From positions 47,865-111,864 of the IMG/VR virus record IMGVR_UViG_3300025924_000001: a stretch of DNA of 64,000 nt. The stretch is one strand, 5' to 3'. The position numbers and the translations under genes are program-made. Positions 2,806-20,092 of the stretch are shown here, piece after piece. The notes under the pieces are model-generated. The model saw only the letters and a program-made list of their open reading frames with translations. It ran no database searches and was not told where the DNA came from. Each line of letters opens with the position of its first letter. Positions within the stretch are counted from its first letter, which is position 1. Origin of the DNA: a virus (lineage: Duplodnaviria > Caudoviricetes).

Positions 2806-5706
2806 CTACTTGAAACCGGTCATCTTCTTCAGCTCCCGCCACGCAACTTCCCGCTGCATCGGGTCGGGGTCGTTCCGCCACTGGTGGTGCAGTGCCTGGA
2901 ACACGGACTCCTGAGCGCGCTCCGCGCGGCTCACGGACGGCAGCACCTCCGGTGCCACCGCCTTGTTGATCTGGTCGAACGCGACGCCGCGGTAGGGACC
3001 CACCGGGTCCGGCTGCTCGGCGAGCGCCTCCAGCTTCTTGCGGGTCTTCTTGAGGTCCTTCCGAAGGTCGGCGACCTCGGCGTCTCGGGCCGCGTTGACG
3101 TCGGCGACGGCCTTCGTGATCATCTCCTGGACGGTCACGAGGTCGAGGGTGACGGCCTTGGTGACCTCGGTCGTGACGGTCTTCTCGGCCTCAACGACCT
3201 CGGTCGCCGCGGCCTCGACCCTCACCTTCTTGGGCTTGGCGGCCTTGGCCGCACCGGCACCGTGCGGTGCTGGGCCGCCGACCCCCACCGGCACCGGACG
3301 AGAGCCCGGCAGCGAGCCGCCGTAGGGGCTGCCGCTGGGCGCGGTTGGGCAGAGGTCGGGGAAGGTCTGCGCGATGTGGTCGTGCATGGCCAGCATGGCC
3401 TGCCGCGCGTTGTCCTTCATCGCGTTGGTGTAGTAGGTGCGGGTGGGGACGCCGGTCACCGACGGTGGGCTCACCGGTCGCATCGGGTTGCTGCCGCTCG
3501 CGGGTGTCTCGGAGGCGCGACCCGCGGTGAGGTAGCCGTGGTTGAACTGCGCCGCGGAGATCGACCCGAACGGGTTGGGCGCGGTGTTGGGGCCGCCGTG
3601 GCCCGGCGACGCGGCCTCGTGACCGGCCGTGACGAGCGGACGGTTGTAGGAGCGGCCGTTCATCGAGCCCGGGGCGGGGAAGGTGCCGGGACCGGGGTTC
3701 GCGTCGCGGAACTCCTTGTACAGCTCCGACTTCGCCTCGAGCAGGTAGCGCGGGTCGGTTCCCTTGAGGGTGACCACGTGCTGCCACAGGTCGTTCGCCT
3801 TGCGGGCCTGGTCGAGCGGCGCGGACGCGGCCATCTCGAAGGCCTTGCGCTGCCAGTGGTTCGGGTCGAGGCTGGACAGGTCGTAGCTGGGGTAGCTCTT
3901 CGCGACGTCGTCTGGGTGGAAGCACGGGCAGGTCAGGTCGTGCAGCACGCCGTAGTCCGCGGGAACGTTGAGCATCTTCAGCCGCATCGACGCCGAGCCC
4001 TCGTGGTCGCCGGGGAAGATGAGGTCCGCGGTCTTCACGCTCGAGTCGGGAACGGTGGGCAGCTTCGCGTCGTGCTCGAGGGCCTCGATCGCGGGGCCGT
4101 CCGGCTCGCGGTGCGCCGGCACCGGGTCGGCGTCCTCGGTCTCCTCGACGCCGTCGGTGGGCGTCGCCTTCTTCTCGGCCTTCACCTTCTTGCCCTTGTG
4201 GCTCGCCCGGATCTTGCCGCCGGTGGCCTCGTCGTCATCCCCACCGTCGCCGTTCTCACCGCCGGCGGCCTTGACCTTGCTGTCCGCCTCCGGCAGGTAG
4301 CCGGGGTGGGCCTTGCCGCAGGACGGGCAGAACTTCTCGCCCTTGTCGAGCTGGTAGCCGCAGCCGAGGCACGTGAAGTCGTGGTTCTTCTTGACCGCGA
4401 GCGCGCCCTTGAGCTTGCCGCCGCACTCGGGGCAGAAGTTGTGCTCGGCGTGCAGGTTCGCCCCACAGCCGGGGCACATGACCTTGTCCTTCTTCTCGAC
4501 GGTGACGACCTTCTCGACGGTCGGCTCGACGGCCTTCTCGCCGTCGTCGCACTTCTCCGTCTCGTTCTCGTCCTCGTCGTCGGCCTTGGCGCTGCCGGCG
4601 CCGCCGGTCCCGGCACCGGCGGTGCCGCCGCCGGCCTCACCCGCGCCGGCGCTGCCGCCGCTCGTGCCGCTGCCGCCACCGGTGGAGCCGGCCTTCGCCT
4701 CGTCGGGCTCCTCGTCCTTCGTGGCGTCCGGCTCGTCCATGGTCTTCGCCTCGGTGACGTCGTCCTCGACGGTGTCGACGTCGATCACCTTCTCGCTGTC
4801 GCTCATGCCGAGCTCCTTCTTCCAGCTCTCGGGGAGCCGGGCCACGAAGGCGGCACCCTTGCGTCGGGCGATGCGAATGATGCTGCTCTTCAGGTCCTCG
4901 GGCGACTTGTTGTCGTCGCCGGCGCGGCCGATCGAGGTCGCGGCGTCGTGCACGTCCTGAGGGGTGACGATGGGGAAGGAGCGGTCGGTGCCCGCGAAGT
5001 CACCGGCGGGGATCGCGTCGCGATCGGTGCCGCCACCCACGTTGGGGTCCACGTCGCGCTTCACGACGCCCTCGTGACCGGTGAGTGCCTTAGCGACGTC
5101 GGCCGGGGTGACGCGCTCACCCTCGTACGTGACGCCGCGCTTCACGACGATCTCGGTGACGTCGCCCAGCATCTTGCCCACGAACTCGGGGTCACCGTCG
5201 GCGCCGGCGGCCTTCACGAGCTGGAACTTCGAGTTGAAGTTGCTGCCGCGGTCGACGAGGCTGATCTCACTGATCTTGGTGAGGCCGTCGCGGCGGCCGC
5301 GGATGATGCCGTTCATGGCCTTGCCGGTGGGGTCCGGCACGATGTCCGGGTGCGTGATGCCCACCGAGTAGCAGGTCAGGACGCCCTTGCGAACGAGCTC
5401 CTTGGCCACGGGCTCCACGACGAGGGACTTGACCCAGTGCCCGTCGGGGGTCGCCTCCACCTCGAGGCCCCTGCCGGCCGGGTCCCGGCGAGCCTGGTGC
5501 TGCACCCGCACGTTGCCGCCGGTCTCGAGCCACTCGTGGATCGCCTTCGCGGACCAGTCCTGGTCGACGATCTGCAGGTCGCTGTCGACGGTGCCGTCGG
5601 TGGCCTTGCCGTAGACGATGAGGTCGCCGTCGGCCGTCTCCTCGGTCTTCTCGATGGGGAACGAGAAGTAGGTCAGCTCGCCGTCGGGGGTGAGGGTTGC
5701 GGCCAC
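2806..5706 (-). CDS. Prohead maturation protease/scaffold fusion with double zinc ribbon
   Basis: N-terminal HK97-like protease motifs (YGKAT...DSDLQIVD, NVRVQH, YSVG, EISLVDR); CPGCG/CPECG/CLGCG/CPSCG ribbons; acidic linker; C-terminal coiled coil; lies between portal and capsid. Confidence 0.8.
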   Translation of the reverse strand: MAATLTPDGELTYFSFPIEKTEETADGDLIVYGKATDGTVDSDLQIVDQDWSAKAIHEWLETGGNVRVQHQARRDPAGRGLEVEATPDGHWVKSLVVEPVAKELVRKGVLTCYSVGITHPDIVPDPTGKAMNGIIRGRRDGLTKISEISLVDRGSNFNSKFQLVKAAGADGDPEFVGKMLGDVTEIVVKRGVTYEGERVTPADVAKALTGHEGVVKRDVDPNVGGGTDRDAIPAGDFAGTDRSFPIVTPQDVHDAATSIGRAGDDNKSPEDLKSSIIRIARRKGAAFVARLPESWKKELGMSDSEKVIDVDTVEDDVTEAKTMDEPDATKDEEPDEAKAGSTGGGSGTSGGSAGAGEAGGGTAGAGTGGAGSAKADDEDENETEKCDDGEKAVEPTVEKVVTVEKKDKVMCPGCGANLHAEHNFCPECGGKLKGALAVKKNHDFTCLGCGYQLDKGEKFCPSCGKAHPGYLPEADSKVKAAGGENGDGGDDDEATGGKIRASHKGKKVKAEKKATPTDGVEETEDADPVPAHREPDGPAIEALEHDAKLPTVPDSSVKTADLIFPGDHEGSASMRLKMLNVPADYGVLHDLTCPCFHPDDVAKSYPSYDLSSLDPNHWQRKAFEMAASAPLDQARKANDLWQHVVTLKGTDPRYLLEAKSELYKEFRDANPGPGTFPAPGSMNGRSYNRPLVTAGHEAASPGHGGPNTAPNPFGSISAAQFNHGYLTAGRASETPASGSNPMRPVSPPSVTGVPTRTYYTNAMKDNARQAMLAMHDHIAQTFPDLCPTAPSGSPYGGSLPGSRPVPVGVGGPAPHGAGAAKAAKPKKVRVEAAATEVVEAEKTVTTEVTKAVTLDLVTVQEMITKAVADVNAARDAEVADLRKDLKKTRKKLEALAEQPDPVGPYRGVAFDQINKAVAPEVLPSVSRAERAQESVFQALHHQWRNDPDPMQREVAWRELKKMTGFK

Positions 5707-16786: not shown

Positions 16787-18535
16787 TCACCCCTCCCACG
16801 GCCACCGCCCCGCCTGCCGGTCCTCCCACGGCCACCGCCCCGCCTGCCGGGCCTCGAGGGTCGGGATCAGACCGAACGTCGCGTCGGTCAGGCCGCCGAG
16901 CTCGTAGCGGTTGGTGCCCGGCTGCGTCGGCAGCGCGGACGCCGTGTAGGCGGCGACGTTGAAGGCGTAGATCGGCACGCCGCGGGGCGCCGAGGCGTCG
17001 ACGTCACCGATGTGGTAGCCGTGCATGACGTTGCCGAACGTCTGCAGGTCGGTGAGGATGATGACCCGTCGGTGGTCGTCCCGCAGGGTCTCGCTCACGG
17101 CCCGGGCGATCTCGGTGCCGCCGCCGACGCTGCCGATGCTCTTCCGGAACGTCTCCACGGCCCGCAGCAGGCTCGTGCCGCGGTCGACGCCGGTGACGTG
17201 GAACTGCCGGTTCGCGAAGCCCCACAGGTCGACGCCGGCGGGGTTCCGGATCTTCAGGGCGAGCCCAAAGATCGCGGCCGCGGTCGCGTAGTCCATCTTC
17301 GACTTGCTGGACAGCTCGCCGTAGGTCATCGAACCGGAGGTGTCGACGAGCACGAGCGTCCGCCCGTCGAGGATCGGCACGTTCGCGAGCGAGTGGCTCA
17401 GGGCCTGCTCCAGGGCGTGACCCCACCGCAGGGACTGCACCTCCCGGTAGGCGGACCAGAACCGGAACGGCAGTTGCCGGCTCCGCTTGACCTGCTCCGG
17501 GTCGGCGAGCCGCGTGATCAGCGGCCCGGCCACGGAGTCCGGGACCCCGGCCTCGTCGAGGTTGCGAAGGTTCCGCAGCAGGGCCATGTAGCCCATGGTC
17601 GGTGCGGCGAGCTGCCAGATCTCGGCGTTGGTGATCGGTTCAACCCTGGTCGGCTTCTCACCGAGCCACGGCTTGAGCCACTCCCACTGCCCGACCATCG
17701 CACCCTGGATCAGGTCCAGGGAGACCTGGTTGCCTCGCAGGGCACCCCAGGCGAGCTCGTGCCGCTCGTCGGGCGCGTAGCGCGACAGGGTGTGCCGCAG
17801 GTGGACCTTGGTCAGGGACTCCGGCGGCTCCGCGTCGTCGCGACCCTGCCGCGCTGTGATCGCCCACCGGAACAGGTCGTCCTGCCACGAGCGCTCGGCA
17901 CCGGGGACGCGGACGTTCGCGTGGGTCAGCTCGAGCACGTCACCGAACCGGACGGCCTTGGCCTCACCGTCGTAGCGCAGGAACGCGGCCTCGTCGTAGA
18001 GGCGGGTGACGGCGTCGGCGACGCCGCGCTTGACCGGCTTCGGCAGCCGGAGCTGCGCGGTGCCGTCGTCGCGGATGACGCCCCAGCGGTGCTTCCAGTA
18101 GGCGAGCAGCTCGCCGGGCTCGTCCGCGCGCTGCAGGACGGACGTGATGAGCTCGCGGTTGCCGTCACCAACCTTGCCGGCAGCGAGCCGCGCGTGCACG
18201 GCCTCCGCGGCGAGCAGCAGGGACGCGGTGCGGATGTTGCCCGGGCCGCGCAGCCAGGAGAGGAAGGCACGCACCCACGGCCACGTCTCATCGTCGGTCG
18301 CGAGGCCGCGCACGAGCTCGCGGAGCCGGTCCGTGCCCTCATCCGCGGTCTCGTAGAACGCCTTCTCGCCGGCGAACCGCGTGGTTGCGCGGAGGAACAG
18401 CTCCGATCGAGCGTCGCGCGTGTAGCCCGGGGCGCCCTCGTGGGTCACGGTGTCGGGGGTCGAGCTGACCGTCCGCAGCGGGCCGCCGGGGGCGACGCGT
18501 CGCGGCTGGGTCGCTGCCTTGTTGAATCCTGCCAC
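16787..18535 (-). CDS. rsr: TROVE/vWA domain protein (Ro60 orthologue)
   Basis: THEGAPG...SELF, QRADEPGE, PKPVKRG, MGYMALLRNLRN, SRQLPFRF, vWA MIDAS LVDTSGSM, GGT, IILTD; GAGGAG SD before GTG at 18535. Confidence 0.93.
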   Translation of the reverse strand: MAGFNKAATQPRRVAPGGPLRTVSSTPDTVTHEGAPGYTRDARSELFLRATTRFAGEKAFYETADEGTDRLRELVRGLATDDETWPWVRAFLSWLRGPGNIRTASLLLAAEAVHARLAAGKVGDGNRELITSVLQRADEPGELLAYWKHRWGVIRDDGTAQLRLPKPVKRGVADAVTRLYDEAAFLRYDGEAKAVRFGDVLELTHANVRVPGAERSWQDDLFRWAITARQGRDDAEPPESLTKVHLRHTLSRYAPDERHELAWGALRGNQVSLDLIQGAMVGQWEWLKPWLGEKPTRVEPITNAEIWQLAAPTMGYMALLRNLRNLDEAGVPDSVAGPLITRLADPEQVKRSRQLPFRFWSAYREVQSLRWGHALEQALSHSLANVPILDGRTLVLVDTSGSMTYGELSSKSKMDYATAAAIFGLALKIRNPAGVDLWGFANRQFHVTGVDRGTSLLRAVETFRKSIGSVGGGTEIARAVSETLRDDHRRVIILTDLQTFGNVMHGYHIGDVDASAPRGVPIYAFNVAAYTASALPTQPGTNRYELGGLTDATFGLIPTLEARQAGRWPWEDRQAGRWPWEG

Positions 18536-18568
18536 GTTCCTGACTCCTCTTCCTCGTTGGTCAGACAA

Positions 18569-18612
18569 CACGAGACCCTCAGCTCGACAGGGAGTGAGCT
18601 GAGGGTCTCGTG
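18569..18612 (-). terminator. 17-bp perfect hairpin between the RNA array and ro60
   Basis: cacgagaccctcagctc / gagctgagggtctcgtg, followed by TTGTCT on the minus strand. Confidence 0.6.
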
Positions 18613-18684
18613 GTGGTGTGGTTCACCCCGTCACGGGTCAACCACGGTGCTCGTCACGGCGACTGATTGGACGAGGTCACGCCG

Positions 18685-18758
18685 TTGCGGGGACGGGATT
18701 TGAACCCGCGACCTGTGGGTTATGAGCCCAACGCGCTACCGAGCTGCGCCACCCCGCT
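18685..18758 (-). tRNA. tRNA-fMet (CAU), initiator-type
   Basis: Cloverleaf; GGG-CTCATAA-CCC anticodon arm with three G-C pairs; unpaired 1:72; T loop TTCAAAT; no encoded CCA. Confidence 0.9.
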
Positions 18759-18774
18759 AGGGCTTCGTGAGCTG

Positions 18775-18860
18775 GACCGGGACGAGACCTGAGGTTGACG
18801 ATCGGCAATGAGGCGCAACCAATTTGCGAAGTAGCCGGTCGTCAGCGCACCGTCCCGGTC
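18775..18860 (-). ncRNA. Y RNA-like unit Y1 (short payload)
   Basis: Terminal stem, GGTGCG, inner stem ending CGG, CTACTTC, payload hairpin, GGTCTC; scaffold shared with Y2-Y5; adjacent to ro60. Confidence 0.7.
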
Positions 18861-18870
18861 GCTCACGAGG

Positions 18871-18959
18871 TTCACCACGAGACCGGAGGTTGGCTGACGG
18901 ACCGTCGCTACCGATTAAGAGTCGATTGAAGTATCCGTCGGCCTTCGCACCGTGGTGAA
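18871..18959 (-). ncRNA. Y RNA-like unit Y2 carrying a Lys(CUU) anticodon stem-loop
   Basis: Same scaffold; payload ATCGA-CTCTTAA-TCGGT. Confidence 0.75.
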
Positions 18960-18976
18960 GATCATGTAGTTGTGGG

Positions 18977-19121
18977 TCGTCGCGAGACCGAGGCCGCTCA
19001 CGGTTGATTCAGTAACGTGCTACCGATTACACTACAGCCCGAGGGGCCGACGGGACTCGAACCCGTACCTCAACCTTACGAGGGTTGTATTGAAGTAGCC
19101 GCTCGCTTCGCACCGCGACGA
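18977..19121 (-). ncRNA. YrlA-like Y RNA Y3 with a complete permuted tRNA-Thr(CGU) domain
   Basis: Scaffold plus anticodon arm CAACC-CTCGTAA-GGTTG, T arm ACGGG-TTCGAGT-CCCGT, looped acceptor stem, D arm. Confidence 0.8.
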
Positions 19122-19133
19122 TGAAGTTGTGGC

Positions 19134-19268
19134 TCACCTCGAGACCGAAGCGCCGATCGGGGTATGCCGCTTGGCCGCTGCGGCTAACGACCGGGGTTGA
19201 GACCGGTCGATGGGATTCGAACCCACGATTCCACCAGGAAGTACCCGCTCAGCTTCGCACCGAGGTGA
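19134..19268 (-). ncRNA. YrlA-like Y RNA Y4
   Basis: Scaffold plus T arm GTGGG-TTCGAAT-CCCAT, looped acceptor stem CGACCGG/CCGGTCG, D arm. Confidence 0.8.
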
Positions 19269-19298
19269 AGTTGTCGTGAGGGGTTGCCCTCTCACTCG

Positions 19299-19372
19299 TG
19301 GCTACCGCTGGGTTCGAACCAGCGACCTCCCCGGTTTCAACGGGGCGCTCTCCCAGCCTGAGCTAGGCAGCC
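19299..19372 (-). tRNA. tRNA-Phe (GAA)
   Basis: Cloverleaf; CCCCG-TTGAAAC-CGGGG; T loop TTCGAAC. Confidence 0.88.
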
Positions 19373-19375
19373 AGG

Positions 19376-19478
19376 TGCACGATGCGGGGTCATCCCCCGC
19401 TTGAGCTCGTCTCATGGCCGAGCCCTTTCAGCGGTACAGGAACTCGAGTACTTGTCAGCTGAAGGTTCGCCGTCGTGC
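19376..19478 (-). ncRNA. Unidentified multibranch structured RNA
   Basis: Closing stem GCACGA/TCGTGC, long internal stem CCTTCAGC/GCTGAAAGG, hairpin GCGGGG-GATGA-CCCCGC; lies between two tRNAs. Confidence 0.4.
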
Positions 19479-19488
19479 CGGCACCCCG

Positions 19489-19559
19489 TACCCCACGCCG
19501 GGATTGAACCGGCGCCAGCCGCTTGAGGGGCGGCCGTGCTACCACTACACCAGTGGGGC
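19489..19559 (-). tRNA. tRNA-Glu (CUC) with C33
   Basis: Cloverleaf; GCCGC-CCCTCAA-GCGGC; T loop TTCAATC. Confidence 0.8.
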
Positions 19560-19563
19560 GTGC

Positions 19564-19680
19564 GTTGATGTTGCTAAGCTGAATAGTACCACCAGGTGGG
19601 AATTGAACCCCGACCGCCCGTACGTTGCGGCTCCATCCAGGAGGGAATTGAACCCCGACATCAGCTAGTTCAACATCAAC
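19564..19680 (-). ncRNA. Novel RNA with two tandem T-loop modules
   Basis: 10-bp terminal stem GTTGATGTTG/CAACATCAAC enclosing two copies of GTCGGGGTTCAATTCCC(T/A)CCTGG. Confidence 0.6.
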
Positions 19681-19705
19681 TTGCGACGGCGTACGACCGT
19701 CACCG

Positions 19706-19777
19706 CGCCGGAGACGGGGATTGAACCCGCGACCTCTCCCTCGACAGGGGAGCGCTCTTCCATTGAGCTACTCTGGC
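19706..19777 (-). tRNA. tRNA-Asp (GUC)
   Basis: Cloverleaf; CTCCC-CTGTCGA-GGGAG; G73; one acceptor-stem mismatch. Confidence 0.85.
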
Positions 19778-19781
19778 TTGA

Positions 19782-19927
19782 CCTCACCGAGACCGAGTGA
19801 TCGCTCCCGGTTCCTATTGACTCATGCTCTGCCAACTGAGCTACCGACTGCCTAGGCCGAAGGACGGGATTCGAACCCGTGACCCTGAGTTCCGCTGAAG
19901 TATCCGAGTGCGTTCGCACCGGTGAGG
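19782..19927 (-). ncRNA. YrlA-like Y RNA Y5
   Basis: Scaffold plus ACTCA/TGAGT anticodon-stem equivalent, T arm ACGGG-TTCGAAT-CCCGT, D arm GCTC-AGTTGGCA-GAGC. Confidence 0.8.
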
Positions 19928-19994
19928 CTCGTGCTGATCGCTGGTTGAGCCGGCGAGCGTCGGGGGGTCTTAAACCCGCCGGTTGAACTGGCGA

Positions 19995-20092
19995 TGGTGA
20001 AACCGTACCATCCGTCGTCGAGCGCTGTCCAGGGCTATTCTCAACAACTTTTACTGTTTACAAGCGACCCTCAGCGTGGTACGGTTTCACCA
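19995..20092. promoter_or_regulatory. Divergent promoter pair
   Basis: Minus: TGGACA-18-TACGGT, driving the RNA array; plus: TTTACA-17-TACGGT; both share TGGTACGGTTTCACCA as a 16-bp inverted repeat. Confidence 0.7.

What the first reader, a model, noticed from the sequence alone, without database searches (positions are those of the whole stretch)
16787..19927. Phage Ro60 gene with a modular array of five Y RNAs, each carrying a different tRNA-derived payload
Seen: five units on the minus strand share one scaffold: terminal stem, GGTGCG, inner stem ending CGG, nTACTTC, PAYLOAD, inner stem, GGTCTC, terminal stem. Stem sequences differ between units while pairing is kept (covariation). Payloads: short hairpin (Y1), anticodon arm only (Y2), whole permuted tRNA (Y3), T-acceptor-D elbow (Y4, Y5). 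The units are interleaved with 4 tRNAs under one promoter, upstream of a TROVE/vWA gene. Established: bacterial Ro60 (Rsr) binds Y RNAs encoded nearby; YrlA RNAs mimic the tRNA elbow; some phages encode Ro60 and YrlA. Inference: one protein plus interchangeable RNA adaptors forms a programmable RNP toolkit that presents varied tRNA mimics to host nucleases, toxins or decay enzymes.
Basis: partly seen in the sequence, partly recalled or inferred. Interest (0 to 1): 0.92.

Follow-up and report, generated by a model that had tools for sequence, protein, structure and literature searches.

The report
Phage Ro60 with five Y RNAs
A high-GC phage carries a Ro60 RNA-binding ring gene preceded by five small RNAs with one shared Ro60-type handle and different tRNA-like inserts; this is real, but the same multi-RNA arrays sit in front of Ro60 genes in many actinobacteria and their phages, so it is a new member of the known Ro60/Y RNA system.

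Summary
Five minus-strand units (18776-19928) share a terminal stem, GGUGCG, an inner stem, nUACUUC, a variable insert, and GGUCUC. Shuffles expect 0 such motifs. A covariance model matches all five full length (31.7-47 bits).

The inserts are as described:
- a 5-bp hairpin;
- an anticodon-like arm (CUCUUAA);
- all four tRNA arms in permuted order (called tRNA-Thr CGU once un-permuted in silico);
- two T-acceptor-D elbows.

The gene behind them is a true Ro60 (E 7e-25 to phage phiLo Ro60).

The array is not special to this phage. The same scaffold occurs in 2-7 copies directly upstream of Ro60 in about 24 IMG/VR contigs and in cultured phages (VanLee, Quantum, Neville, BRock, Atuin). It also occurs, by a looser motif count, in at least 2 copies in 72 of 80 actinobacterial chromosomal Ro60 loci. 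All the same insert classes recur there.

This is the actinobacterial YrlA/YrlB family (Chen 2014). A phage-specific decoy role is weakened, and no function was tested.

One point seems undescribed in the papers I could search. The hairpin before the T arm keeps an anticodon-loop frame (C32 U33 ... A37 A38) while its triplet is highly variable.

This scan had already noted similar handle-plus-cargo arrays beside Ro60-like genes on other DNA.

The parts
19781..19928 (-).
   Evidence: R1 gives 31.7 bits full length. Rfam YrlA gives a partial match of 29.1 bits over T-AS-D at 19822-19888, below its gathering score of 69. An ortholog lies in L125:2293-2443.
19705..19777 (-). tRNA-Asp(GUC)
   Evidence: ARAGORN; Rfam tRNA 63.5 bits.
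19564..19680 (-). Extra structured RNA without the Ro handle: a long terminal stem enclosing two T-loop-like hairpins
Evidence: MFE z-score is -3.9 here and in the L125 ortholog, and the terminal stem covaries between the two.
19488..19559 (-). tRNA-Glu(CUC)
19373..19487 (-). Conserved element after tRNA-Glu, with an exact GNCGAA motif (GGCGAAC) next to a 6-bp closing stem; possibly a divergent sixth Y RNA
   Evidence: Its 5' and 3' ends are conserved in L125:2607-2720. The fold is only weakly better than shuffles (z -2.1 here, -0.9 in L125).
19298..19372 (-). tRNA-Phe(GAA)
19133..19269 (-).
   Evidence: R1 gives 36.5 bits. The L125 ortholog (3313-3445) is nearly identical; the acceptor-hairpin stem is kept while its loop changes from 8 to 4 nt.
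18976..19122 (-).
   Evidence: R1 gives 40.2 bits with filters off. Rfam YrlA gives 32.9 bits (partial) and Rfam tRNA 24.3 bits, below its cut-off of 29. ARAGORN calls tRNA-Thr(CGU) after in-silico un-permutation. The L125 ortholog has compensatory changes in the T and acceptor stems and the loop CUCGCAA.
18871..18959 (-).
   Evidence: R1 gives 47.0 bits. The L125 ortholog (3623-3710) changes only loop position 34 within the hairpin (CUGUUAA) and has compensatory inner-stem changes.
18776..18859 (-).
   Evidence: R1 gives 46.7 bits. In L125:3721-3801 the insert is replaced by a different hairpin while the handle is kept.
18684..18758 (-). tRNA-Met(CAU) with initiator-like features (1:72 mismatch, GGG/CCC at the base of the anticodon stem)
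   Evidence: alignment
18562..18610 (-). Terminator-like hairpin (15-bp stem, 10-nt loop, tail UGUUGUCUG) between the array and the Ro60 gene
   Evidence: Read from the sequence. It lies at the same place, with a different stem sequence, in L125. The tool's scan did not list it. Quantum and VanLee have clear hairpin-plus-U-run terminators at the same place.
16787..18535 (-). Ro60 (TROVE + vWA) gene, 582 aa, GTG start with GGAAGAGGAG upstream
   Evidence: Pfam TROVE 4.9e-12 and weak vWA matches; phrog_850 5.9e-38; phmmer to phiLo Ro60 9KOP/9L5Y 7e-25 and to D. radiodurans Rsr 2NVO 3e-11. The start is set by the ATG of the L125 ortholog at the same position.
20031..20064 (-). Conserved upstream block (TTGTAAACAGTAAAAGTTGTTGAGAAT...), a putative promoter
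   Evidence: Conserved between the window and L125, whose Ro60 is 79% identical. There is no sigma-70 consensus match, so function is inferred only.

Best explanation
This is the Ro60/Y RNA locus of an actinobacteriophage.

A run of five Y RNAs, four tRNAs and at least one further structured RNA appears to be made as a precursor. It is probably cut at the tRNAs by host RNase P and RNase Z.

Each Y RNA pairs its two ends into a stem. That stem holds a conserved bulged helix (5' GGUGCG, 3' GGUCUC with a bulged U), and the phage Ro60 ring binds there.

The far end of each RNA is a different tRNA-derived module: a T/D elbow, an elbow plus anticodon-like arm, an anticodon-like arm alone, or a plain hairpin. 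As in the published Ro60-Y RNA-PNPase machines, these modules most likely dock the ring onto different host RNA-decay or tRNA-recognising proteins, and gate access to its cavity. The infected cell's handling of structured or damaged RNA would be reshaped as a result.

Shown here: the units, their shared folded scaffold, their exclusive linkage to Ro60 genes, and their membership in one family with the arrays at actinobacterial Ro60 loci. Inferred: co-transcription, processing, Ro60 binding, and every step of function.
For: - Five full-length scaffold matches against 0 expected.
- The scaffold pairs are supported on an unbiased MAFFT alignment of 16 units: 84% paired against 37-43% slid, covariation 0.68 against 0.10-0.14. 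They are also supported on 84 units: 89% against 31-52%, covariation 0.57 against less than 0.1.
- Of about 120 contigs fetched by the bare motif, 24 have model hits. All but three of those (two of them short or with the array at the locus end, plus L055) have a Ro60 gene directly downstream on the same strand. None of the roughly 95 contigs without model hits has a Ro60 gene.
- Eighty actinobacterial Ro60 loci give 188 model hits, all just upstream of the gene and on the same strand.
- Ro60 identity is established.
- The handle resembles the published contact motifs, and nUAC matches YrlA's conserved YUAY (PMC4201824).
- Published precedent: Y RNAs are co-transcribed with tRNA-Asp in D. radiodurans; M. 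smegmatis YrlA and YrlB come from one precursor and bind Rsr; the phage phiLo Ro60 binds two upstream Y-like RNAs and forms complexes with host PNPase (PMC4201824; PMC12135203).
- A relative whose Ro60 is 79% identical keeps the same five units, with compensatory stem changes.
Against:
- No promoter consensus was found.
- Rfam's YrlA model scores the units far below its gathering score: 33 bits or less against 69.
- The phage has no adjacent PNPase or RNA-repair gene; the genes beside the locus have no family match except a terminase further downstream.
- Which partner, if any, each module recruits is unknown, even for the published bacterial YrlA.
Confidence: 0.55

Rival explanations
1. Decoy reading. 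The anticodon-like and elbow modules, held and protected by Ro60, act as baits. They soak up or mis-direct anticodon nucleases and other tRNA-targeting toxins or defences, sparing the real tRNA pool.
For: - U4 and U3 show canonical anticodon-loop frames (C32 U33 NNN A37 A38).
- Without any filter on loop sequence, 7-nt loops ahead of T arms are U33 in 15/16 phage and 18/24 bacterial cases, and purine-37 in 15/16 and 23/24.
- The triplet is the most variable part of otherwise conserved orthologs: 1.47 against 0.25 bits in Lentzea; CUU to GUU and CGU to CGC between this phage and L125. This would fit an arms race.
- The arrays sit with tRNA genes in phages and beside long tRNA arrays in some bacteria.
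Against: - The same modules are standard at chromosomal Ro60 loci of many actinobacterial genera, so they are not a phage-specific counter-defence.
- A variable triplet is equally what absence of constraint would give.
- No tRNA-targeting system was identified in any host.
- Nothing shows that these RNAs are cleaved or bound by such enzymes.
Confidence: 0.15
2. Stability and processing reading. The RNAs are mainly lids or regulators of the Ro60 cavity. The tRNA-like folds serve only to make them nuclease-resistant and to let RNase P, RNase Z and CCA-adding enzymes cut and finish them. They have no module-specific partner, and the number of copies simply sets dosage.
For: - Chen 2014 proposes exactly this protective role as one possibility. 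[quoted passage not shown]
- Inserts are swapped freely between relatives: the U5 insert is replaced in L125.
- The triplets drift.
- Un-permuted U3 is no closer to any one tRNA than to the rest: best 73%, median 61%.
Against: - Distinct insert classes recur across distant loci rather than decaying.
- The anticodon-loop frame and the T and D arms are held under clear constraint with compensatory changes.
- Published work notes conserved D and T stem bases that tRNA folding alone does not require (10.1101/312249).
Confidence: 0.2
3. Not Ro60 partners at all. The units are decayed or rearranged tRNA genes, or cis-acting leader and processing elements of the tRNA/Ro60 transcript, and the shared motif is a processing signal.
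For: - They sit among tRNA genes.
- ARAGORN and GenBank annotators call some of them tRNAs: VanLee tRNA-Arg, Frankenweenie tRNA-Pro.
- No binding data exist for this family's handle in these phages.
Against: - The motif family is absent from tRNA clusters that lack Ro60. It is present at Ro60 loci that have no tRNA genes: ARAGORN makes no tRNA call in 49 of 80 bacterial loci, and most of the single calls in the others fall inside Y RNA units.
- Two of the five units have no T or D arm.
- The closed end-to-end stem with a bulged helix is the defining Y RNA shape.
- M. smegmatis RNAs at such a locus co-precipitate with Rsr.
Confidence: 0.05

Closest known systems
Actinobacterial and mycobacteriophage YrlA/YrlB Y RNAs with Rsr (Chen et al. 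2014, RNA 20:1715, PMC4201824)
   Same: - Encoded just upstream of Ro60 on the same strand, several per locus, and made from one precursor.
- A 5' motif of the GNCGAA/GGUCCGA type followed by YUAY.
- One class carries T arm, closed acceptor hairpin, D arm and a further hairpin ahead of the T arm (their 'V'). Another class is a plain hairpin (YrlB-like).
- U3 is 147-148 nt. A cut at the acceptor loop would give about 82 + 66 nt, close to the 82 + 65 nt halves reported for M. smegmatis YrlA (size match only; sequences not compared).
- My model finds the same scaffold in Streptosporangium, Rhodococcus, Nocardia, Streptomyces and other genera.
   Different: - Five handle-bearing units instead of the two characterised.
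- Both strands of the handle helix are conserved, whereas the paper reports only the 5' strand as recognisable in M. smegmatis.
- The hairpin ahead of the T arm has an anticodon-loop frame and a canonical AGGU variable loop. The paper reads that hairpin as a variable arm.
- One unit carries that hairpin alone.
- The tRNAs interleaved with the units are the phage's only tRNAs.
Salmonella Typhimurium YrlA (Rfam RF02553; crystal structure 6CU1, bioRxiv 10.1101/312249)
   Same: The T arm, acceptor-like hairpin and D arm are enclosed by a stem that leads to the Ro60-binding module. The conserved UA follows that stem.
   Different: - Rfam's model gives only partial matches of 29-33 bits against a gathering score of 69. 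It reaches its gathering score in none of 16 actinobacterial and phage loci tested.
- Salmonella YrlA is stated to lack an anticodon loop, whereas U3 and U4 have one.
- There is no rtcBA repair operon here.
Thermus phage phiLo Ro60 with Yrl1 and Yrl2 (NAR 2025, PMC12135203; PDB 9KOP, 9L5Y)
   Same: A phage-encoded Ro60 (best solved relative, E 7e-25) with Y-like RNAs directly upstream that contain a CGAA motif. It has been shown to bind them and to form complexes with host PNPase.
   Different: Two RNAs instead of five. No tRNA-like modules are reported in the passages I read. The host phylum differs, and the proteins share only distant similarity.
Deinococcus radiodurans Rsr with Yrn1, Yrn2 and RNAs a, b, d (RYPER machine)
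   Same: - Up to five small RNAs upstream of rsr.
- Yrn2, tRNA-Asp and Yrn1 are co-transcribed.
- Both strands of the Ro-binding helix are retained.
- T-arm-like hairpins are present, and Yrn1 has a possible anticodon-like arm.
   Different: A separate lineage of Y RNAs with a different order of arms. The Yrn1 loop has 6 nt. RNAs a, b and d lack the handle, whereas here all five units share it.

Membership tests
Y RNA (Ro60-bound ncRNA) | Encoded close to the Ro60 gene, on the same strand | tested here: met
   All five units lie 240-1390 nt upstream of the Ro60 start, on the same strand. The same holds for 188 model hits in 80 bacterial loci and for about 24 phage contigs.
Y RNA (Ro60-bound ncRNA) | An RNA of 70-150 nt whose 5' and 3' ends pair into a long stem carrying a conserved bulged helix with the Ro60 contact motif (GGUCCGA / GNCGAA type) | tested here: met
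   Units are 84-148 nt. The terminal helix is 98% paired and covaries. GGUGCGA matches 6 of the 7 bases of GGUCCGA as quoted in PMC4201824. G9-C, G10-C and C13-G are invariant, with a bulged U, in 16 of 16 units. The CGAA core is present in U1-U4; U5 has CGCU.
Y RNA (Ro60-bound ncRNA) | Physically bound and stabilised by Ro60 | not testable with these tools
   There is no RNA-protein tool, and no reads were available.
YrlA (Rfam RF02553) | Reaches the family's curated gathering score | tested here: not met
   The best matches are 32.9 bits (U3) and 29.1 bits (U1) against 69, covering model positions 23-85 only. The family is also absent at gathering score from 16 related loci.
YrlA (as defined in Chen et al. 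2014) | tRNA-like domain with the order T arm, closed acceptor-like hairpin, D arm, after a conserved YUAY | tested here: met
   U1, U2 and U3 have this order. The nUAC of the handle matches YUAY. U4 and U5 lack T and D arms and resemble the hairpin-type YrlB instead.
YrlA (as defined in Chen et al. 2014) | [quoted passage not shown] | not testable with these tools
   This needs RNA from infected cells. U3's acceptor hairpin has 6 bp and a 3-nt loop. Several relatives have 7-bp stems, the length the paper links to RNase P cleavage.
Functional tRNA | Standard arm order with free acceptor ends, detected by tRNA models | tested here: not met
   ARAGORN calls only the four ordinary tRNAs. Rfam tRNA on U3 scores 24.3 bits, below its cut-off of 29. 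U3 is recognised only after artificial un-permutation.
Ro60 / Rsr protein | TROVE (HEAT-repeat ring) followed by a vWA domain, with homology to solved Ro60 structures | tested here: met
   TROVE is over its cut-off (46.2 against 23 bits). The vWA families are weak and below their cut-offs. phmmer gives 7e-25 to 9KOP/9L5Y and 3e-11 to 2NVO over residues 266-566. The protein is 43-50% identical to 80 actinobacterial Ro60 proteins.

The most novel reading that the evidence does not exclude
The hairpin ahead of the T arm (alone in U4) may be a deliberately displayed anticodon mimic. Its frame (C32 U33 ... A37 A38) is fixed while its triplet diversifies. If so, Ro60 particles in actinobacteria and their phages would carry a changeable three-base 'address'. 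That address could bait anticodon-specific nucleases, or it could pair with or compete for particular tRNAs or codons. The arrays would then be sets of such addresses.
Probability: 0.12. Interest if true: 0.8.

Novelty: new member of a known kind. Interest (0 to 1): 0.4.

Why it matters
What the tRNA-like part of bacterial Y RNAs does is still open.

This work shows three things:
- One handle family with a small set of recurring tRNA-derived modules is standard at Ro60 loci of actinobacteria and their phages.
- Rfam's YrlA model does not detect it at its gathering score.
- Annotators often file its members as tRNAs or small proteins.

Because cultured, genetically tractable phages (Gordonia phage VanLee, Streptomyces phages Quantum and BRock) carry 2-4 such units, deletion, pull-down and small-RNA experiments on Y RNA function are practical.

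For this window itself the result is mostly clarifying. The array is real and well formed, but it is not an exceptional phage invention.

Tried and rejected
- Megablast of the locus against cultured phages found nothing. tblastn with the protein was needed.
- Rfam at gathering score found only the four tRNAs. At relaxed E-value it gave only partial YrlA matches.
- My first guesses at large ORFs for PHROGs were mostly wrong frames and gave little.
- The first regex for the 3' motif was too strict. The 3' consensus is G-N-U-C-U-C.
- With default filters, R1 missed full-length U3. With filters off it scores 40.2 bits.
- The supplement of Chen 2014 and the 2020 Annual Review on bacterial Ro60 are not held. 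I therefore could not see which phage loci, or how many units per locus, were already tabulated.
- I could not fetch M. smegmatis or mycobacteriophage ET08 sequences to compare the validated YrlA directly. tblastn with a Rhodococcus Ro60 listed no Mycobacterium phage among the rows shown.
- U3 was tested as a recent capture of a particular tRNA and that idea was rejected: best identity 73% against a median of 61% in a set of 91 tRNAs.
- Neighbouring genes gave no RNA-repair or PNPase link.

Full report
**What is there**

The window is the right-hand 64 kb of a complete 111,864-bp virus record with terminal repeats and 68.5% G+C.

On the minus strand between 19928 and 18776 lie five units with one plan. 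Each has a terminal stem of 7-9 bp, then GGUGCG, an inner stem ending in CGG, nUACUUC, a variable insert, the inner stem's return strand, a short linker, GGUCUC, and the terminal stem's return strand.

- The combined 5' motif occurs five times in the window, against none in 100 shuffles.
- The canonical GGTGCG...TACTTC form occurs nowhere else in the genome.
- The phage's only four tRNA genes (Asp, Glu, Phe, Met) are interleaved with the units.
- Downstream comes a 15-bp terminator-like hairpin, and then a 582-aa gene (18535-16787).
- That gene has a TROVE domain over Pfam's cut-off and weak vWA matches. It matches PHROG 850. It is related to the solved phage phiLo Ro60 (E 7e-25) and to D. radiodurans Rsr (E 3e-11).

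**Is the scaffold a folded RNA?**

I fetched loci with the bare motif from IMG/VR and aligned 16 short units, 14 of them from other contigs, with MAFFT (A1).

- RNAalifold recovered the terminal helix by itself. Eight of its pairs show compensatory changes. G9-C, G10-C (with a bulged U between) and C13-G are invariant.
- For the full 19-pair scaffold, 84% of cells pair against 37-43% when partners are slid. The covariation score is 0.68 against 0.10-0.14.
- A covariance model from this alignment (R1) matches all five window units end to end at 31.7-47 bits.
- On the five units alone, 82% of cells pair against 32-44% slid, and the terminal helix is 98% paired.
- On 84 units from 28 sources the figures are 89% against 31-52%, and 0.57 against less than 0.1. 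That alignment is fitted to the model.

**The inserts**

- U5 carries a 5-bp hairpin with a 5-nt loop.
- U4 carries a 5-bp stem with the 7-nt loop C-U-CUU-A-A.
- U3 carries, in order, such an arm (C-U-CGU-A-A), the classic variable loop AGGU, a T arm, a closed 6-bp acceptor-like hairpin, and a D arm.
- U1 and U2 carry a small hairpin, a T arm, an acceptor-like hairpin (irregular in U1) and a D arm. Rfam's YrlA model aligns to this core only partially and far below its threshold.

I tested U3 by cutting it in the acceptor loop and removing the scaffold in silico. ARAGORN then calls tRNA-Thr(CGU) in 40 of 54 join variants. The U2 control gives none.

Topologically, a hairpin ahead of the T arm can be read in two ways. 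It can be an anticodon arm with the scaffold as an extra helix. Or, as in Chen et al. 2014, it can be a long variable arm with the scaffold standing in for the anticodon stem. The 7-nt loop frame and the AGGU linker favour homology to an anticodon arm, but the element itself is probably their 'V' stem-loop.

**Link to Ro60**

Of about 120 contigs fetched by the motif alone, 24 have R1 hits at E below 1e-3, nearly always two or more. tblastn finds a Ro60 gene directly downstream on the same strand in all but three of them: L029 (array at the locus end), L081 (a 1.9-kb locus) and L055. None of the roughly 95 contigs without R1 hits has a Ro60 gene.

A close relative (L125, Ro60 79% identical) keeps the same five units in the same order, with six tRNAs. 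Differences between the two are informative:
- There are compensatory changes in T, acceptor and inner stems.
- The loop of U2's acceptor hairpin is resized.
- The U5 insert is replaced.
- Within the two anticodon-like hairpins only the triplet changes (CUU to GUU, CGU to CGC).

**How common is it?**

Cultured phages have the same family.
- Gordonia phage VanLee has four units upstream of its 'Ro-like RNA binding protein' (three found by R1 plus one read by eye). One of them is annotated as tRNA-Arg(tct).
- Streptomyces phage Quantum has three (one full R1 match plus two read by eye).
- Neville, BRock and Atuin have two each.
- Frankenweenie has weak hits and a 91-nt 'tRNA-Pro'.

An alignment of 16 phage Ro60 proteins retrieved 80 actinobacterial chromosomal loci, 43-50% identical to the window's protein. 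They include Streptosporangium, Actinomadura, Micromonospora, Lentzea, Streptomyces, Amycolatopsis, Nocardia and Rhodococcus.

- R1 finds 188 units there, all just upstream of Ro60 and on the same strand.
- A looser handle-motif (regex) scan of whole loci, which is not restricted to the stretch upstream of Ro60 and so can include a few chance matches, gives 2 units in 23 loci, 3 in 26, 4 in 17, 5 in 5 and 6 in 1.
- All the insert classes are present, including 30 units with anticodon-like arm, T arm and D arm.
- A quick tree places phage and bacterial Ro60 proteins among each other at many nodes (FastTree, midpoint root, descriptive only).

Multi-unit, variable-insert arrays are therefore the rule at Ro60 loci of this clade. 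The phage locus looks like a mobile copy of a bacterial arrangement.

**Relation to the literature**

Chen et al. 2014 (PMC4201824) reported the following:
- YrlA-like RNAs near Ro60 in 254 bacteria and 22 phages: 355 RNAs in all, with several per locus reported when significant.
- A 5' GNCGAA motif resembling GGUCCGA, and a conserved YUAY.
- T, acceptor-like, D and 'V' stem-loops.
- At least two Y RNAs per studied species, one of them a plain hairpin.
- Co-transcription with tRNA-Asp in D. radiodurans.
The YrlA structure paper states that Salmonella YrlA lacks an anticodon loop. Phage phiLo Ro60 binds two upstream Y-like RNAs and host PNPase.

I found no paper in the held library describing the 3-7-unit arrays or the anticodon-like frame. 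However, the 2014 supplement and the 2020 review are not held. Rfam's YrlA model reaches its gathering score in none of 16 related loci.

This scan's earlier notes record similar handle-plus-tRNA-like-cargo arrays next to Ro60-like genes in other, unrelated phages. They also hold first-stage notes on this same stretch.

**An added observation**

I took every T-arm-bearing unit and folded the stretch between handle and T arm, with no filter on loop sequence. The hairpins fall mainly into 4-nt and 7-nt loop classes.

Within the 7-nt class:

| Loop position | Phage units | Bacterial units |
|---|---|---|
| 32 is C | 11/16 | 14/24 |
| 33 is U | 15/16 | 18/24 |
| 37 is a purine | 15/16 | 23/24 |
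| 38 is A | 12/16 | 14/24 |

Positions 34-36 vary freely.

In nine orthologous copies from Lentzea and a related genome, the three middle positions have a mean entropy of 1.47 bits against 0.25 for all other columns. Only 8 of 137 other columns are as variable. In core Streptomyces the first unit alternates between CUGAUAA and CUCAUAA.

This fits either no constraint on the triplet or diversifying selection. I cannot tell which.

**Mechanism**

The best-supported reading is that these are Ro60-bound Y RNAs of the actinobacterial YrlA/YrlB family. They would be released from a tRNA-punctuated precursor, with distal modules that act as adaptors and gates for the ring.

Three rivals remain:
- The decoy reading is weakened by the chromosomal distribution.
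- The purely protective or processing reading remains possible.
- The 'not Ro60 partners' reading is unlikely given the exclusive linkage.

All functional steps are inferred.

**Verdict**

This is a new member of a known kind, of moderate interest. Its value lies mainly in the family-wide picture and in pointing to cultured phages where Y RNA function can be tested.

Noticed in passing
window 19564-19680 (-): A further structured RNA lies between tRNA-Asp and tRNA-Glu. It has a long terminal stem around two T-loop-like hairpins (GGGGUUCAAUUCCC twice) and no Ro handle. Its MFE z-score is -3.9 here and in the L125 ortholog, and the terminal stem covaries between them.
   Followed up: partly
window 19373-19487 (-): An element after tRNA-Glu has conserved ends in L125. 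It carries an exact bacterial-type GNCGAA motif (GGCGAAC) next to a 6-bp closing stem. It may be a sixth, divergent Y RNA; the fold signal is weak (z -2.1).
   Followed up: partly
window 20077-20092 and 19995-20010: A 16-bp inverted repeat (TGGTGAAACCGTACCA / TGGTACGGTTTCACCA) brackets the conserved putative promoter block of the array and is kept in L125. It looks like a pair of operator sites.
   Followed up: no
window ~16790-16880 (-): The Ro60 gene ends in a tandem 30-nt duplication, giving the C-terminal peptide RQAGRWPWE twice. Related Ro60 proteins end with a single ...WPWE.
   Followed up: no
L002:2638-2709 (Gordonia phage VanLee); L129:2245-2335 (Streptomyces phage Frankenweenie); L127:2004-2286 (Gordonia phage Neville): Public annotations seem to misread Y RNA units. 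VanLee's only tRNA, Arg(tct), is the anticodon-like arm plus T arm of a unit. Frankenweenie's 91-nt tRNA-Pro(tgg) lies in the array. A Neville covariance-model hit falls inside the small hypothetical gene gp89, and a second hit overlaps the annotated start of its Ro60 gene. ARAGORN makes similar calls inside about 20 bacterial arrays.
   Followed up: partly
L133, L145, L157, L143 (Micromonosporaceae and relatives): In these bacterial loci a run of 6-28 tRNA genes lies directly upstream of the Y RNA array and Ro60 gene. Ro60/Y RNA modules thus travel with tRNA arrays in bacteria as well as in phages.
   Followed up: no
window 18684-18758 (-): The phage tRNA-Met(CAU) has initiator-like marks: a mismatched first acceptor pair and three G-C pairs at the base of the anticodon stem.
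   Followed up: no
L144-L160 (Lentzea and a related MAG), about 2810-2955: In orthologous copies of one long unit the three middle bases of the anticodon-like loop differ in most genomes (GUU, GUA, UUU, GCA, CCU ...), while almost every other base of the 140-nt RNA is fixed.
   Followed up: yes
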